From an uncultured Candidatus Saccharibacteria bacterium (GTDB taxonomy: Bacteria; Patescibacteriota; Minisyncoccia; Phycocordibacterales; Zambryskibacteraceae), in the NCBI GenBank assembly GCA_964504255.1, contig CAZDDU010000003.1, positions 1 to 63,895 of the forward strand: a stretch of 63,895 bases of DNA. The letters run 5' to 3'. Position numbers and translations under genes: made by a program. Position 1 is the first letter of the stretch. Every line of letters begins with the position of its first letter. Below are positions 7,350 to 58,241 of the stretch, one piece after another. The notes beneath the pieces are model-generated. The model ran no database searches. It saw only the letters and a list, made by a program, of their open reading frames with translations, and was not told where the DNA came from.

Positions 7350-7391
7350 CTATCCACAGCATTCCCCACGTTTTCCACAGGTTTATCCACA
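7350..7391 (+). promoter_or_regulatory. Cluster of four co-oriented DnaA-box-like 9-mers
   Basis: CTATCCACA 7350, TTCCCCACG 7362, TTTTCCACA 7371 and the perfect TTATCCACA at 7383. Confidence 0.6.
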
Positions 7392-23484: not shown

Positions 23485-24593
23485 TACTTTTTGCTCTTGT
23501 CTATGTAAGAGAGCGCCATCTTCTGCTCCTTAGGATCAAAGAGCGTGATCTTGAATGAGTATGACTTACCCATCTCAAGAGTTGCTCTTAAGTTGTCCTC
23601 AGAGCCGAACTCAGAGACATGCACAAGGCCCGCAACACCTTCCTCGATAGAGGCGAGTGCACCATGCTTGTTGTATTTGATGATCACACCCTCGACCACA
23701 TCGTCCTTCTTGTAGTTCTTCGATGCATCCTTCCATGGATTCTCCTTCAAGGCCTTGATAGAGAGTGAGATTTTCTCATCCTTGATTTCGATGATCTTCA
23801 CCTTCACCTTTTCTCCAATCTTGAACATTGCTTTAGGATTCTCCACTAGACCCCAATCAATCTCAGAGATGTGTACTAGGCCCTCTAGTCCTTCCTCGAG
23901 CTTCACAAAGACACCGAAGTCGACGAGTCCTGTGATCTCACCCTGGAGCTCATCGCCGAGAGTGTAACGAGCGAGGATGCTCTCCTTGCTCTTGGTCTCA
24001 GGTGACTTCTCAGAGAAGATAAGCTTACCCTCCTTAGGTGCCGCACCGATGATGGTGACAGTGAGCTTCTCACCAACTAACTTCCTTAGCTCGTCTAGGA
24101 TCTTGTCCTTATCGCCATCGTTCACTCTAGGATAATGCTCAGGCTTAAGCTGTGATGCTGGGAGGAATCCTTGGATACCTTGCCAGTTCAAAATAAGTCC
24201 ACCCTTGTTGGCATCAGTAACAAGAATGTCGAAGATTCTCTTGTCGCGGATTGCCTCGTCAGCGTCGCTCCAGATGAGTGCCTGTCTTGCTTCCTTAAGA
24301 GAGATCTCGATGTAGCCGTCTTTGCCACCCATAGAGACCACCTTGCCTGCGACCGCATCGCCGACATTGATCTTCTTGATTATGTCACGAGCGTTCATGA
24401 ACTCGCGTCCGTAGATGATACCGGTGCCGTATGGAGGTAAGTCGATATATACCGCTCCCTTGTCGATGCTTATTACAGAACCTTCCACTACATCCTCAAC
24501 TGCTGGTGGGTTTGGTGACTTAGCCACCAACTGACCCATAAGAGAGTTGTCTACTTCGACAACCTTCTCCTTCTTAACTTTTTCTTTAATCAT
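23484..24593 (-). CDS. rpsA: 30S ribosomal protein bS1, four-domain form
   Basis: Repeated S1 domains (GFLPASQL, DFGVFV, GLVHISEIDW, GLVHVSEF). Start at ATG 24593. Confidence 0.92.
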   Translation of the reverse strand: MIKEKVKKEKVVEVDNSLMGQLVAKSPNPPAVEDVVEGSVISIDKGAVYIDLPPYGTGIIYGREFMNARDIIKKINVGDAVAGKVVSMGGKDGYIEISLKEARQALIWSDADEAIRDKRIFDILVTDANKGGLILNWQGIQGFLPASQLKPEHYPRVNDGDKDKILDELRKLVGEKLTVTIIGAAPKEGKLIFSEKSPETKSKESILARYTLGDELQGEITGLVDFGVFVKLEEGLEGLVHISEIDWGLVENPKAMFKIGEKVKVKIIEIKDEKISLSIKALKENPWKDASKNYKKDDVVEGVIIKYNKHGALASIEEGVAGLVHVSEFGSEDNLRATLEMGKSYSFKITLFDPKEQKMALSYIDKSKK

Positions 24594-24720
24594 TAGTGTG
24601 ATTCTCAGACGGTCCTTCGGCCTCAAGAGTGTTTGCCTAGGCGGGAAGGGGATACGTACCGAGAGTTGCTATTAAACTCACACGAGCCATCAAGGTAACA
24701 GAAAATGATCGGTTTGTAAA
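24594..24720 (-). promoter_or_regulatory. rpsA promoter and structured 5' leader
   Basis: TTTACA-17-TACCTT with a TG extension. The leader's 5' GTGTGA pairs with TCACAC just before the ATG; internal GAGTT/AACTC and GGCC-GAA-GGAC hairpins. Confidence 0.55.
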
Positions 24721-24733
24721 TGTTTTTGTATAT

Positions 24734-25167
24734 AAAAAAGAACAACCCTTGTGGGGGTTGTGTGTGGGGCGGTGGCTCCCGCGGGCCCCGGATCGTGTCC
24801 GGGGCCCGCGGGGTAAAACTATGCCGCGTTTTCGTCTGCTCTGTGTGTTCCAACGCCGGTCCTTGCCGGGACAATGATGGTGTAAGCGGGCCCAGTTACC
24901 TTAACCTGGGTGATTCGTCGGGTAACACCTCCTTTCTTTGTAAACCCCGTGGGGTCGGCGACTGTTGGGCGGAATGCGTCCGGCCCTGCGCGAGCTCCGA
25001 GTCGAGTCTTGGCCGCCGAAGTGGTGCCAATCTGACCGGAGCGGAGTAGCCCGTCACTGTCTCTCCTAGGCTCAGTGGTCTACCGACTGGTAGCCACCTT
25101 GCTGAATTCAGGCGAGAGTGAGGGGCAGCCCCGCACGCCCTGTGGGCATGCGGGCAGGAACTAATCT
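24734..25167 (-). ncRNA. Unassigned large structured RNA candidate (~430 nt)
   Basis: GC-rich non-coding island with a consensus promoter, many strong hairpins (one of 15 bp), a C(UUCG)G loop and a terminator with a U-tract. No ORF with a canonical start looks credible. Confidence 0.65.
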
Positions 25168-25173
25168 ATATTA

Positions 25174-25202
25174 ACCTTAGCACACCCTGTCTATAATGTC
25201 AA
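25174..25202 (-). promoter_or_regulatory. Sigma70 promoter of the 24734-25167 RNA
   Basis: TTGACA-17-TAAGGT with a TG extension. Confidence 0.75.
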
Positions 25203-25265
25203 GCACTTTTTTGCCTTCCACCTTATTTACTGAGGGGAGGGCTCGGGGGAAATATGGGGATAAAT

Positions 25266-25299
25266 TGTGGATAACTCCTACCAAGGCCCGGCCTCGGTA
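25266..25299. repeat. 21-bp palindrome plus DnaA box, copy 2
   Basis: TGTGGATAA at 25266, then TACCAAGGCCCGGCCTCGGTA at 25279-25299. Confidence 0.75.
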
Positions 25300-25328
25300 A
25301 AATAATAGAAAAAGCCCGCTAGTGTGTG

Positions 25329-25556
25329 CTAGCGGGTCTTTGGGGGTACTGTCATCTGATATTTATCGAGCATCGCAGACTCGTCCTGAGAGATGGCGTG
25401 GAATCGACTCCTACGCATCGTAACTGGATCAAGCTTGACAGCTCTTGGAATCTGCTTGCTCAACACCTCTGCGGCTGTTATTGCCGAAGAGATGCCAAGC
25501 ATGAGAACTGTCAGACTCATAGTAGTCCAGAGAGCTCTCTTGATTCCTTGGATCAC
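25329..25556 (-). CDS. Small hypothetical secreted/membrane protein
   Basis: Translationally coupled (GTGA overlap) to 25553-26038; hydrophobic N-terminus. Confidence 0.55.
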   Translation of the reverse strand: MIQGIKRALWTTMSLTVLMLGISSAITAAEVLSKQIPRAVKLDPVTMRRSRFHAISQDESAMLDKYQMTVPPKTR

Positions 25557-26038
25557 TGACCAGCCTTCGTGACGACGAACTTGTCACAGCGAGGGTTCTC
25601 GATGTCGAGGGACGAGGTGAAGGTGAGCATGTAGTTCGGCACCACCGTGTAGGTGATACTCGCGATCGGCTTCCGAGAGCAGATGCGCACTTCACCGGTA
25701 TTCGCGAGGCGGAGTTCTCCGCTCTGGAGTACCTCGATCGTCTGCGGGTCACTCGAGCAGAAGGTCTGTGTGCTGTCAGAGACATCGCAGTCCTTCCGCG
25801 CCGGCTTGAGTACGATAGCCGGAGTTGAGTCGACCTGGGTCGCCGTGTCTGCCACTTCGACTGGTGTAGTGACCGAGTCCTTGCTGTCATTCTGGAAGTA
25901 GGCGAGCGCACGTGGGGTTCCCTTCACTAGGAGCCAAGCTCCGATGCCTATCACAGCGATTGCGGCAATGGTTCGAAGCAGGCCACTGATCCTTCCCCCA
26001 ATCGAGCTACTGGTCCACCAATTACGAAGTTGAAGCAC
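25553..26038 (-). CDS. GC-rich membrane-anchored exported protein with Cys pairs
   Basis: SD AAGGAGG, N-terminal TM helix, Thr/Asp-rich linker and a beta-rich domain with four Cys. Confidence 0.7.
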   Translation of the reverse strand: MLQLRNWWTSSSIGGRISGLLRTIAAIAVIGIGAWLLVKGTPRALAYFQNDSKDSVTTPVEVADTATQVDSTPAIVLKPARKDCDVSDSTQTFCSSDPQTIEVLQSGELRLANTGEVRICSRKPIASITYTVVPNYMLTFTSSLDIENPRCDKFVVTKAGQ

Positions 26039-30100: not shown

Positions 30101-30141
30101 TTGTGCCTCTCTGCGAGCGTTAGCTCACAAGGAGGTCTTGG

Positions 30142-30600
30142 TCAACATCGGCTCACGATGTTCCGATCGACGAGGGAGATGGCCTTGTCGTCGTTCTTCG
30201 CCGCCGCCGGGTACCCCATGGTACTTCGCGTGTTGATCGCCGCCGCCTTCTTCACCTTCCGCGAATTCATACGGGTGGACGAGGTGGGCATGGCCGCGAG
30301 ATCGCCCGAAGGGCTCACCTCCTGGTCGACGACGACCATGGTGGCGGCGAGACGGGAGACGTTGTACGTGCGATGCTCGGAGAGACCGACCATCTTGAGG
30401 TCGGGCATCGCCGGGTTGGAGGTGAGGATGAAGTTGAGGGACGAGAACTGCTCGGCGTCCGTCACCATGGCGGTGCCGGGGTCGATCGGCGTCTTGGCGT
30501 CGAAGAAGTCCTTGGACTTCCTGGTCTCGGCAGCCGCGGTCGGCGGCATGGCGAGCGAAACGGCGATCAGCGCGAGGGGCAGGAGACGCTTCAGCATCAT
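30142..30600 (-). CDS. GC-rich hypothetical secreted protein
   Basis: GGAG SD; signal peptide MMLKRLLPLALIAVSLAMPPTAAA; promoter TTTACA...TATCAT. Confidence 0.65.
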   Translation of the reverse strand: MMLKRLLPLALIAVSLAMPPTAAAETRKSKDFFDAKTPIDPGTAMVTDAEQFSSLNFILTSNPAMPDLKMVGLSEHRTYNVSRLAATMVVVDQEVSPSGDLAAMPTSSTRMNSRKVKKAAAINTRSTMGYPAAAKNDDKAISLVDRNIVSRC

Positions 30601-30705
30601 GTGCACACTCCGTGTGTGAAAGGTACAAGCAATGATCGACCTTGTTCGATCATTCTGCGAAGTATGATACCCTAATATAAATATTTGTAAAGCGAGGTAT
30701 AAAAA

Positions 30706-57897: not shown

Positions 57898-57902
57898 ATT
57901 AC

Positions 57903-58241
57903 AAGAATGTTCATTCGGGTAGTTGCTAGCTCTGAGATAGATTGTTCAACAGTCCTATGGAATGTTGACGAGATATCAACGAGGTGTACAGATGACTGTA
58001 AAGCACGCAGATAGGCCAATCTGGTCCAAGCGAAAGGGTTCTCCCTAAAGTTTGTACTAGGACTAAAGGGAACCGGCCCCGGTCTCCCTCACATCGCAAA
58101 TGGTCGATACACTGCGGATCGCTAACCTTCATTTGTCTCGGGGAAATCGATACTTGAATTCAGGGCCTCCGAAAGGCGCCCAGAGCAAGCCTCCTAGCAA
58201 CTCCCCACCCCCCTTCACCCTCGACAAGTTCGAGGGTGTTT
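57903..58241 (+). ncRNA. Unassigned large structured RNA candidate (~300-340 nt)
   Basis: Ends closed by AGTTGCTAG/CTAGCAACT and CTCTG/CAGAG; internal hairpins, a GAAA tetraloop and a 7-bp loop-loop complement; own promoter and terminator. Confidence 0.6.
58215..58241 (+). terminator. Terminator with REP-like sequence
   Basis: CACCCTCGA/TCGAGGGTG stem followed by TTTT. Confidence 0.65.

What the first reader, a model, noticed from the sequence alone, without database searches (positions are those of the whole stretch)
24734..25167. Candidate novel ~430-nt ornate non-coding RNA with its own promoter and terminator
Seen: TTGACA-17-TAAGGT promoter (25202-25174) and a terminator with a U6 tract (24761-24734) bracket a GC-rich island (sampled lines 41/60 G+C) in an AT-leaning genome. 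It is packed with helices: an 11-bp 5' hairpin (25130-25154), GUGG-CUACC/GGUAG-CCAC, GCUCCG/CGGAGC enclosing UUGGC/GCCAA and a C(UUCG)G loop, ACCC/GGGU, CCCAG/CUGGG, and a perfect 15-bp hairpin (24778-24812). The 5' hairpin has a U-G pair on the minus strand but C-A on the plus strand, which supports minus-strand transcription. It lacks the hallmarks of tmRNA, RNase P, SRP, 6S and group I/II introns. Inference: a new large ncRNA class of the GOLLD/ROOL/OLE size range, sitting directly upstream of rpsA.
Basis: partly seen in the sequence, partly recalled or inferred. Interest (0 to 1): 0.8.

Follow-up and report, generated by a model that had tools for sequence, protein, structure and literature searches.

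The report
Abundant mosaic orphan RNA beside rpsA
This is a real, highly expressed, strongly folded non-coding RNA gene of about 434 bases in an ultra-small (Parcubacteria/CPR) bacterium; it matches no known RNA family, occurs only in a narrow group of relatives, is built from hairpin modules that have been swapped between lineages, and its function is still unknown.

Summary
Window 24734-25167 (minus strand) is a separate transcription unit with a TTGACA-17-TAAGGT promoter (TG-extended), an intrinsic terminator, 58-62% G+C and a fold far more stable than shuffled sequence (z -5.2).

Four rRNA-depleted metatranscriptomes carry near-identical contigs over 24822-25147 at depth 9-52, while rpsA and the upstream genes read zero.

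Rfam 15 (also at E<=10) and ARAGORN give no match. Indels are not in multiples of three, and no ORF is conserved.

Homologues exist only in close relatives, always between two small membrane-protein genes and rpsA. Helices are kept by compensating changes; in the 3' hairpin and terminator, 6 pairs changed on both sides and 0 of 500 shuffles matched.

The alleles are mosaics. Four segments each come in 2-3 types, found in all combinations, and one allele shares only the 3' domain. Sister lineages carry unrelated structured RNAs, small protein genes or nothing at this site.

So it is a new, lineage-restricted, fast-evolving RNA family, not a widely conserved "ornate" class, a housekeeping RNA or an rpsA leader. 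Function is not shown; I infer a stable trans-acting scaffold or protein-binding RNA.

The parts
25174..25202 (-). Promoter: -35 TTGACA (25202-25197), 17-nt spacer ending TGC (extended -10), -10 TAAGGT (25179-25174)
   Evidence: Read directly from the sequence. It is conserved in all alleles as TTGACA-N11-GTRTGC-TARGRT. It is not called by the consensus scan, because the -10 matches TATAAT at only 3 of 6 positions.
24734..25167 (-). The RNA gene itself, 434 nt from the inferred start (AGAUUAG...) to the end of the terminator U-run
   Evidence: Fold z-score -5.2. No Rfam or ARAGORN match. RNA-seq contigs cover 24822-25147 at depth 9-52 while the flanks read zero. The true 5' and 3' ends are not mapped.
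25130..25154 (-). H1, an 11-bp 5' hairpin whose base CCCG/CGGG is conserved and whose tip varies
   Evidence: Compensating changes G-C to A-U and C-G to A-U, plus C-G/U-G swaps, in L098 and in L084/L087/L082. L001 and L143 have a different tip on the same base.
25049..25126 (-). Domain I, a long bent hairpin (GCCCCUCACUCUC.../...GAGAGACAGUGACGGGC enclosing GUGGCUACC-AGUC-GGUAGACCAC). It is an optional module.
   Evidence: Present in the window-type and group-B alleles, remodelled in L143 and absent from L001. G-C to U-A covariation at positions 71-93. In group B an inserted A is paired with a C-to-U change (sequence reading).
24994..25042 (-). H2, with a conserved base GCUCCGG/UCGGAGC and a variable tip (UUGGC...C(UUCG)G...GCCAA in the window)
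   Evidence: The G-U pair at the fifth position becomes G-C in L143 and A-U in L084/L087. The tip is replaced in L083, L098, group B and L001.
24967..24986 (-). H3, GGG(C)CGGA-CGCAU-UCCGCCC. With the junction CUCGCGCA before it, this is the most conserved stretch.
   Evidence: Nearly invariant in all window-type alleles. G-C to G-U in group B. L143 loses one pair and gains an A-U pair.
24943..24956 (-). H4, GACCC-CACG-GGGUU, a small hairpin
   Evidence: Group B shows a coordinated loss of one C and one G, and G-U becomes G-C.
24891..24932 (-). Segment S3: Shine-Dalgarno-like AAAGGAGGUG whose GGUG pairs with the downstream CACC, followed by H6 (CCCAG/CUGGG)
   Evidence: RGGAGGUG is kept in all window-type alleles. 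The GGUG/CACC partner is CAUC in L098. H6 comes in a short type (win, L084, L087, L001) and a long type (L098, L143, L082) on the same CCC/GGG base. No start codon or conserved frame follows it.
24817..24885 (-). Segment S4, a variable middle module containing the hairpin CCGG-CAAGGA-CCGG at 24856-24869
   Evidence: Three unrelated versions exist among alleles: {win, L098, L001}, {L143, L087, L082} and {L084}, with 55-67% identity between types.
24778..24812 (-). H8, a perfect 15-bp G+C-rich hairpin
   Evidence: 13 aligned pairs, 99% paired, 5 of them changed on both sides across 8 sequences, with 0 of 500 shuffles as good. It is also present in L101, whose 5' 300 nt are unrelated.
24734..24777 (-). 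C/A-rich linker (GCCACCGCCCCACAC) plus the intrinsic terminator (ACAACCC-CCACAA-GGGUUGU, U6)
   Evidence: Terminator scan. Conserved in all alleles.
25329..26038 (-). Two co-inherited upstream genes: a 161-aa membrane-anchored Cys-containing protein (25553-26038) and a 75-aa single-helix membrane protein (25329-25556), with their own terminator at 25315-25336
   Evidence: They are present next to the RNA in every RNA-bearing lineage and are themselves fast-evolving and mosaic, at 25-74% identity while S1 is 95-100%. No Pfam, PADLOC or PHROGs match. A functional link to the RNA is not shown.

Best explanation
A stand-alone gene for a stable, highly abundant, structured non-coding RNA that founds a new, lineage-restricted family.

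It is transcribed on the minus strand from a strong sigma-70-type promoter (perfect -35, TG-extended -10) and ends at an intrinsic terminator about 140 nt before the rpsA start codon. It folds into about eight hairpins. The helix bases and a few junctions are conserved: H1 base, H2 base, H3 with the CUCGCGCA junction, H4, the GGAGGUG hairpin, H6 base, H8 and the C-rich tail. The hairpin tips and whole modules (domain I, S3, S4, H8 type) vary and have been exchanged between lineages by recombination.

Shown: it is non-coding, transcribed, abundant, base-paired, mosaic in its evolution and narrow in distribution.

Inferred: it works in trans as a stable scaffold or protein-binding (sequestering) RNA. 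The conserved core would be the functional surface, and the G+C-rich peripheral hairpins would mainly give stability. It is an accessory function, not an essential one, and is possibly tied to the two fast-evolving membrane proteins inherited with it.
For: Transcription unit and fold.

No known family.

Non-coding: 1-nt indels lie inside conserved blocks and no ORF is shared.

Expression:
- Contigs over 24822-25147 at depth 9-52 in X23, X24, X27 and X28, with zero on rpsA and the upstream genes.
- Only two other loci in about 60 kb are covered comparably.
- About 20 RNA runs from several studies hold the sequence.

Structure kept in evolution:
- 5' domain: 61 pairs, 96% paired, against 28-47% when the partners are slid.
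- H8 and terminator: 96.9% paired, 6 pairs changed on both sides, 0 of 500 shuffles as good.
- Further covariation.

Mosaic alleles: the per-segment identity table shows all four S3 x S4 combinations, and three H8 types are distributed independently. L101 shares only the promoter, the first bases and the 3' domain.

Accessory status:
- Only 1 of 80 species-representative loci has it.
- Sister lineages have other RNAs, small protein genes or nothing at this site.

Co-inheritance with the two membrane-protein genes.
Against: - No direct evidence for any function or partner.
- The 5' and 3' ends are not mapped. The RNA runs are kept as assembler contigs without direction, and they stop at 25145-25147 and 24822-24824, probably at allele branch points.
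- Covariation rests on about 10 distinct alleles from one narrow clade, and most pairs are invariant.
- Fast divergence and patchy presence would also fit a weakly constrained transcript.
I therefore could not confirm that RNase P, SRP and 6S RNAs are encoded elsewhere in this genome, or that sister species lack a copy at another site.
- No extended complementarity to neighbouring mRNAs was found, so a simple antisense mechanism is unsupported. That leaves the trans-acting mode undefined.
Confidence: 0.62

Rival explanations
1. It is a highly divergent housekeeping RNA (RNase P RNA, or less likely SRP, 6S or tmRNA) that Rfam models miss in CPR bacteria. Such RNAs are abundant, about 350-450 nt long, G+C-rich, and have conserved cores with variable peripheral helices.
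For: - The abundance is typical of stable housekeeping RNAs.
- The design, a conserved core with variable tips, is similar.
Against: - No Rfam hit to RF00010, RF00011, RF00023, RF00169, RF01854 or RF00013, even at E<=10 with permissive filters, nor for any allele or sister RNA.
- No GAAAGUCC / ACAGAAnCCGGCUUA P4 motifs, and no long-range P4 pairing, could be found by eye (sequence reading).
- The tag-like frame GCA GAC GAA AAC GCG GCA UAG is absent from L001 and group B.
- The RNA is missing from the same site in species with 87-91% identical S1.
- Whole internal segments are replaced by unrelated sequence, which an essential ribozyme core would not tolerate.
Confidence: 0.06
2. It is a long cis-acting leader or attenuator of rpsA. 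Transcription from the strong promoter would be terminated or read through at the U6 terminator to control S1 synthesis.
For: - It lies on the same strand directly upstream of rpsA, with the terminator about 140 nt before the start codon.
- Other lineages also have a transcription unit at this position.
Against: - rpsA keeps its own conserved leader hairpin (window about 24611-24652) in all lineages, with or without the RNA.
- The RNA is absent in L002, L096 and L091, and is replaced by unrelated RNAs or by protein genes elsewhere.
- RNA-seq depth is 9-52 on the RNA and zero on rpsA.
- A -35/-10-like pair (TTTACA-17-TACCTT) follows the terminator (sequence reading).
- No ligand- or protein-sensing element is conserved.
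Confidence: 0.05
3. It is the RNA part of a small accessory or mobile cassette, or of a toxin-antitoxin-like module, together with the two small membrane proteins. It could, for example, be an antitoxin or regulator RNA for a membrane-active peptide, sitting in an insertion hotspot.
For: - The small membrane protein(s) + terminator + promoter + RNA layout recurs in the window type and in the unrelated L092-type lineage.
- The site between the MBL-fold gene and rpsA is a variable hotspot.
- The island diverges faster than its flanks.
- Earlier notes describe recombinase-less cassettes elsewhere in this genome (untested here).
Against: - There is no complementarity between the RNA and the upstream mRNAs beyond chance: the longest run is 11-15 nt, against a shuffled mean of 11-12 and a maximum of 13-16.
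- No PADLOC or PHROGs match for the proteins.
- No repeats or att-like duplications were noted, and no copies exist elsewhere in the window.
- No match in phage, plasmid or viral collections.
- At 434 nt it is far larger than known type I or type III antitoxin RNAs.
Confidence: 0.15
4. It is a weakly constrained, essentially functionless transcript. A strong promoter and a terminator would bracket G+C-rich spacer DNA whose hairpins persist only because stable RNAs accumulate.
For: Narrow distribution, rapid divergence, replacement by unrelated sequence and loss in close relatives.
Against: - Compensating substitutions, and coordinated indels on both strands of helices.
- A near-invariant H2-H3 core and GGAGGUG motif, amid about 68% overall identity.
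- A conserved strong promoter and very high steady-state level, in a streamlined genome with little non-coding DNA.
Confidence: 0.12

Closest known systems
Large structured bacterial ncRNAs of unknown function (OLE RF01071, GOLLD RF01998, ROOL RF03087, raiA motif)
   Same: - A stand-alone, non-coding, multi-hairpin RNA several hundred nucleotides long, highly expressed, with no known function.
- GOLLD is also described as having a variable half and a conserved half (my own knowledge, not tested here).
   Different: - No Rfam match to any of them.
- Smaller (364-458 nt).
- Restricted to a genus-level clade rather than spread over orders or phyla.
- Far fewer conserved nucleotides.
- No phage or prophage association.
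- No evidence for multimer formation.
Other orphan 300-500-nt structured RNA genes reported by this scan in Parcubacteria (e1-833353 beside rplE and e1-1220767 before prfB in this same genome; e1-1304986 and e1-3681333 in other genomes)
   Same: - Same organism group.
- Consensus promoter plus terminator, G+C-rich, strongly folded, no Rfam family.
- Present, absent or replaced between close relatives, and often next to translation genes.
   Different: - No sequence similarity to this RNA was detected by the look-up.
- These are unchecked AI notes.
- The module-by-module mosaic and the metatranscriptome abundance were shown here for this locus only.
Bacterial RNase P RNA (RF00010/RF00011)
   Same: Size, abundance, G+C-richness, and a conserved core with variable peripheral helices.
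   Different: - No family score.
- No P4 or CR-I/IV/V signatures.
- Accessory distribution.
- Internal segments replaced wholesale.
Protein-sequestering regulatory RNAs (6S RNA, Ms1, CsrB/RsmZ class)
   Same: Abundant, stable, trans-acting RNAs made from their own promoter and terminator. This is the working model I favour for the mode of action.
   Different: - No rod with a central bubble, as in 6S or Ms1.
- No excess of GGA motifs: 8 were counted by eye in the sequence, against about 8-9 expected from composition (own estimate, no tool run).
- No Rfam hit.
- The partner is unknown.

Membership tests
RNase P RNA (bacterial type A/B) | Scores against the RF00010/RF00011 covariance models | tested here: not met
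   No hit at the gathering threshold or at E<=10 on 24500-25400. None for L001, L101, L143 or the sister RNAs.
RNase P RNA (bacterial type A/B) | Universally conserved P4 pseudoknot strands (GAAAGUCCGG ... ACAGAAnCCGGCUUA) | tested here: not met
   Read by eye in the window RNA and the alleles. There is no such pair of complementary conserved strands. The nearest look-alike, ACGAAAACGCGGCAUA, is not conserved in L001 or group B.
RNase P RNA (bacterial type A/B) | Essential, so present in every relative | tested here: inconclusive
   Absent at this site in 79 of 80 species loci, but whole genomes could not be searched.
tmRNA | tRNA-like domain with a CCA-ending acceptor stem, plus a tag reading frame | tested here: not met
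   ARAGORN and RF00023 are negative. The ADENAA-stop frame in the window is not conserved in L001 or group B.
SRP RNA / 6S RNA | Score against RF00169, RF01854 or RF00013; domain IV motif or a rod with a central bubble | tested here: not met
   No hits. The predicted fold is multi-branched.
GOLLD / ROOL / OLE / raiA / HEARO and other large Rfam ncRNAs | Score against the family covariance model | tested here: not met
   cmscan against all 4227 Rfam 15 families gave only chance-level hairpin matches.
GOLLD / ROOL / OLE | Homo-oligomeric RNA-only assemblies (cryo-EM; bioRxiv 10.1101/2024.12.08.627333) | not testable with these tools
   Needs in vitro transcription followed by SEC-MALS or cryo-EM.
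cis-regulatory leader (riboswitch, attenuator or r-protein leader) of rpsA | Conserved together with the regulated gene and co-transcribed with it | tested here: not met
   rpsA occurs without it in most relatives. RNA-seq depth stops before rpsA.
Type I / type III toxin-antitoxin RNA | Antisense complementarity to the toxin mRNA (type I), or tandem repeats that bind a toxin (type III) | tested here: not met
   No complementarity above shuffled controls. No internal tandem repeats were seen in the sequence, and no PADLOC hit for the neighbours.
Protein-coding gene (small ORF) | A conserved open frame with indels in multiples of three | tested here: not met
   The longest ORFs (48-58 aa) differ between alleles, and single-base indels lie inside conserved blocks. 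No Pfam hit for the ORFs that overlap it.

The most novel reading that the evidence does not exclude
The RNA is one representative of an undescribed class of very abundant, module-shuffled RNAs of episymbiotic Paceibacteria. Such RNAs would evolve under diversifying selection together with the adjacent hypervariable membrane proteins. They could be the RNA component of a surface, host-interaction or anti-phage module, or a self-assembling RNA scaffold. The conserved helix-junction core would carry the activity, and the interchangeable hairpins would carry specificity. The unrelated-looking RNAs at the same site in sister lineages (L092, L094, L095, L101 5' part, L032), and at other sites (L134 before rplU; the rplE- and prfB-linked RNAs of this genome), would then be members of the same super-family that have diverged beyond sequence recognition.
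Probability: 0.15. Interest if true: 0.85.

Novelty: new variant of a known kind. Interest (0 to 1): 0.55.

Why it matters
Patescibacteria (CPR) make up a large share of bacterial diversity and have tiny genomes with little non-coding DNA. Almost nothing is known about their regulatory or structural RNAs.

Here an unannotated RNA is among the three most abundant transcripts from 60 kb of such a genome. Public metatranscriptomes confirm it, compensating changes keep its folds, and it evolves as a mosaic of exchangeable hairpin modules on a conserved junction core.

If this pattern is general, as several similar orphan RNAs noted in this scan suggest, CPR bacteria carry a hidden layer of fast-evolving, highly expressed RNAs that standard covariance-model libraries cannot see.

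The allele series described here is a natural mutagenesis experiment. It shows which parts are dispensable and gives a minimal construct, the 364-nt L001 form, for structural and binding studies.

Tried and rejected
- nhmmer and blastn of the RNA against 80 species-representative rpsA loci: only L001 matched.
- A covariance model of the 3' domain (R1) over the window and 99 loci: beyond the training clade it gave only weak hairpin-plus-terminator look-alikes (at most 24 bits), and no paralogue in the window.
- Phage and plasmid collections, and two viral-contig pattern scans: nothing.
- The one metagenome scan used the promoter pattern TTGACA-N11-GTRTGM-TARGRT-N6-AGA. It hit at least 120 contigs of many kinds. 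It yielded one new allele (L143), one partial allele (L159), one L092-type allele (L191) and a look-alike 5' architecture before rplU (L134). Most hits were ordinary genes. Rfam on 20 of these loci found nothing at the promoters.
- tmRNA idea (SD-like motif plus an ADENAA-stop frame): rejected, because the frame is not conserved and no tRNA-like domain exists.
- Diversity-generating retroelement template idea: no second copy of any RNA segment in the window, and no reverse transcriptase was noted near it.
- Antisense or type I toxin-antitoxin idea: no complementarity above chance. RNAduplex against all start regions gave uninterpretable long duplexes.
- CsrA-sponge idea: GGA count is at expectation.
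- Origin-of-replication idea, from the pair of DnaA-box-like 9-mers at 25255-25274: such boxes are scattered over the window (32 against 14 expected) and GC skew is inconclusive.
- S1-decoy idea: there are only short word matches between the RNA and the rpsA leader (AAGGACCG, GGCAA), and they are not conserved among alleles.
- The contig ends at 25145-25147 and 24822 were considered as processing sites. They more likely mark assembly breaks where alleles diverge.
Full report
**What is there**

On the minus strand of window 24734-25167 lies a compact transcription unit.
- The -35 box TTGACA is at 25202-25197. A 17-nt spacer ends in TGC (an extended -10), and the -10 box TAAGGT is at 25179-25174. 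An A at 25167 starts the sequence AGAUUAG.
- The unit ends in a terminator hairpin (24761-24742) followed by U6. The terminator scan finds this hairpin, and also the terminator of the upstream gene at 25336-25315.
- The same scan does not list the promoter, because TAAGGT matches TATAAT at only three positions.
- The promoter is nevertheless kept almost unchanged in every relative, as TAAGGT, TAGGAT or TAAGAT.
- G+C is 0.575-0.615, against about 0.45-0.48 around it.
- The 434-nt RNA folds at -190 kcal/mol against -158 +/- 6 for shuffles (z -5.2). The plus strand folds nearly as well (z -4.8), so the strand assignment rests on the promoter, the terminator and G-U pairs.

**It is not a known RNA and not a protein gene**

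- cmscan against all 4227 Rfam 15 families finds only tRNAs in the window.
- At E<=10 on 24500-25400 it finds only chance hairpin matches.
- ARAGORN finds no tmRNA.
- The ORFs overlapping the region have no Pfam match and differ between alleles.
- Single-base indels lie inside conserved blocks.
- The window has an SD-like AAAGGAGGUG and, further on, a frame reading ADENAA-stop. That frame is missing from L001 and from the group-B alleles.
- Most genes in the window lack a Shine-Dalgarno sequence and start directly behind -10 boxes; only 10 of 41 have an SD-like word. This fits the published loss of the anti-SD sequence in a Parcubacteria subgroup (PMC9297842, found, not read here).

**It is transcribed and abundant**

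- About 20 RNA runs from several studies of wastewater, sludge and bioreactors hold the sequence.
- In four rRNA-depleted metatranscriptomes (X23, X24, X27, X28) near-identical contigs cover 24822-25147 at word depth 9-52. rpsA and the upstream genes have depth zero.
- Over about 60 kb of the window, only two other places carry comparable long contigs. One is a secreted-protein gene at 30140-30612. The other is a second unclassified RNA at 57898-58205.
- The runs are kept as assembler contigs, which have no direction. They stop at 25145-25147 and 24822-24824, most likely where co-existing alleles diverge. The ends of the RNA are therefore not mapped.
- A variant allele is expressed in the same sample (X23 record 8).

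**Who has it**

- The organism is a Parcubacteria/Paceibacteria (Zambryskibacteria-like) MAG.
- Of 80 species-representative loci containing rpsA, only L001 has a homologue. L001's S1 is 95% identical to the window's.
- Exact-protein look-ups of S1 variants and one metagenome scan gave more alleles.
  - Group A is nearly identical to the window (L081, L083, L085, L086, L089, L090, L102).
  - The others are L098 (identical to L099 and L100), group B (L084, L087, L082), L143 and L101.
- The flanks of group B and L001 are 80-93% identical to the window. The RNA and the two upstream genes are only about 68-74% identical.
- At the same site, between an MBL-fold gene and rpsA, sister lineages with 87-91% identical S1 carry other contents.
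  - Unrelated G+C-rich RNAs with the same kind of promoter, an AGA start and a terminator: L092/L223/L224/L191 at 323 nt, L094 at 210 nt, L095 at 370 nt and L032 at 682 nt.
  - Only small membrane-protein genes: L091, L023, L027, L035, L093.
  - Nothing: L002, L096.
- None of these RNAs matches Rfam, and all that I folded are strongly structured (z -3.3 to -6.9).
- No match was found in phage, plasmid or viral collections.

**The fold is maintained**

- On the 12-sequence alignment of the 5' 235 nt, my manual model of 61 pairs is 96% paired, against 28-47% when partners are slid by 1-3 columns. The changes are G-C to A-U, C-G to A-U and G-C to U-A, plus several G-U/G-C/A-U swaps. The residual mismatches in group B come from a one-column alignment offset in stem Ia (sequence reading).
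- For the 3' hairpin H8 and the terminator, the tool counts 96.9% of cells paired and 6 pairs changed on both sides. The covariation score is 0.30 against 0.15, and 0 of 500 shuffles reach it.
- H2, H3 and H4 show G-U/G-C/A-U alternation and coordinated loss of one base on each strand.
- The sample is small, about 10 distinct alleles from one clade, and most pairs never vary. This is good support, but not proof, for every helix.

**Mosaic architecture**

I cut the alleles at conserved anchors into five segments, S1 to S5. Each segment falls into discrete types.

| Segment | Type | Alleles |
|---|---|---|
| S3 (GGAGGUG hairpin + H6) | short | win, L085, L084, L087, L001 |
| S3 | long | L098, L143, L082 |
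| S4 | i | win, L098, L001 |
| S4 | ii | L084 |
| S4 | iii | L143, L087, L082 |
| S5 (H8) | alpha | win, L098 |
| S5 | beta | L084, L087, L082, L101 |
| S5 | gamma | L143, L001 |

- Identity is 75-100% within types and 49-67% between S3 and S4 types.
- All four combinations of S3 and S4 types occur: win 1-i, L098 2-i, L087 1-iii, and L082/L143 2-iii. This requires recombination between alleles.
- L001 lacks the 78-nt domain I and has a private 40-nt insert.
- L101 shares only the promoter, the first bases and the 3' domain.
- The conserved parts are the helix bases (H1 CCCG/CGGG, H2 CUCCGG/CCGGAG, H6 CCC/GGG, H8), H3 with the junction CUCGCGCA, H4, the GGAGGUG hairpin and the C/A-rich tail.
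- This is a junction core carrying exchangeable tips.

**Context**

- In every RNA-bearing lineage the RNA follows two genes, a 150-164-aa membrane-anchored, Cys-containing protein and a 53-84-aa single-helix protein.
- These proteins are also fast-evolving and mosaic. L087's protein is window-like at the N-terminus and L084-like at the C-terminus.
- The L092-type lineage has the same layout, with its own small membrane protein and its own RNA behind a homologous promoter.
- The proteins match nothing in Pfam, PADLOC or PHROGs.
- There is no complementarity above chance between the RNA and these mRNAs or the rpsA leader.

**Interpretation**

The evidence shows a new, lineage-restricted family of abundant structured RNA that is accessory and evolves by module exchange.

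- Its narrow range, rapid change and replaceability argue against a housekeeping ribozyme.
- rpsA keeps its own conserved leader hairpin with or without the RNA, which argues against an rpsA leader.
- Compensating changes, an invariant core, a conserved strong promoter and very high abundance in a streamlined genome argue against junk.
- I infer a stable trans-acting scaffold or protein-sequestering RNA, possibly working with the co-inherited membrane proteins. This step is inference only.

I therefore could not locate RNase P, SRP and 6S genes elsewhere, or look for paralogues. Earlier notes of this scan place ssrA elsewhere and describe two more orphan RNAs of similar size in this genome. 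I did not re-test those notes.

I found no paper describing such RNAs in Patescibacteria.

Noticed in passing
window 24611-24652 (minus strand), and the same position in L001, L002 and L091-L096: The rpsA 5' leader forms a hairpin whose stem covaries between lineages and whose loop YGGCAAnCAC, together with a following RGGACCG word, is conserved. It is present with or without the upstream RNA gene. It is a candidate S1 autoregulatory leader with no Rfam match.
   Followed up: partly
window 57898-58205 (+): A second unclassified RNA of about 310 nt with its own TTGACA promoter and terminator. A 308-nt contig covers it at depth 44 in X27, and a 233-nt contig at depth 25 in X24. No Rfam hit at E<=5. 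Like the RNA studied here, it ends in a C-rich tail before the terminator.
   Followed up: partly
window 30142-30606 (-): A G+C-rich gene for a 154-aa protein with a signal peptide. It is the only protein-coding locus in about 60 kb with long metatranscriptome contigs (depth 13-16), so it is very highly expressed.
   Followed up: no
window 25255-25274; also 7350-7391 and scattered: DnaA-box-like 9-mers (TTATCCACA with at most one mismatch) occur 32 times, against 14 expected. A pair sits about 60-90 nt upstream of the RNA promoter and is kept in L097/L098 and L101. Three boxes cluster between tRNA-Arg and tRNA-Phe. Their meaning is unknown (regulator site, origin or repeat).
   Followed up: partly
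window, whole: Most long ORFs lack a Shine-Dalgarno word (10 of 41 have one), and many start codons sit 6-8 nt behind a TAnAAT box. This suggests mainly leaderless mRNAs.
   Followed up: partly
window 25329-26038 (-) and homologues in L001, L082, L084, L087, L098, L101: The two membrane proteins upstream of the RNA diverge much faster than the flanking housekeeping genes and are themselves mosaics of allele types, as surface or interaction proteins often are.
   Followed up: partly
L134 (Ga0137441_1009496), minus strand, downstream of the promoter match at 1014-1051: A roughly 290-nt G+C-rich RNA-like unit upstream of a ribosomal protein L21-like gene. It begins AGAUCAGGUUCUUGCCCG-loop-CGGGCAA ... 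CUCCGGUAC-loop-GUACCGGGG, the same 5' architecture as the L001 and window RNAs. It may be a distant relative at another r-protein gene.
   Followed up: no
It sits in front of protein genes with structured 5' leaders and of several unclassified short RNAs. An AGAUnAGUUC start followed by a hairpin recurs (for example L175, L180, L203, L212).
   Followed up: partly
L097 2720-2818: This NCBI MAG contig has a run of N exactly where the 15-bp hairpin H8 should be, with duplicated flanking sequence. It is probably an assembly or scaffolding artefact caused by the palindrome.
   Followed up: no
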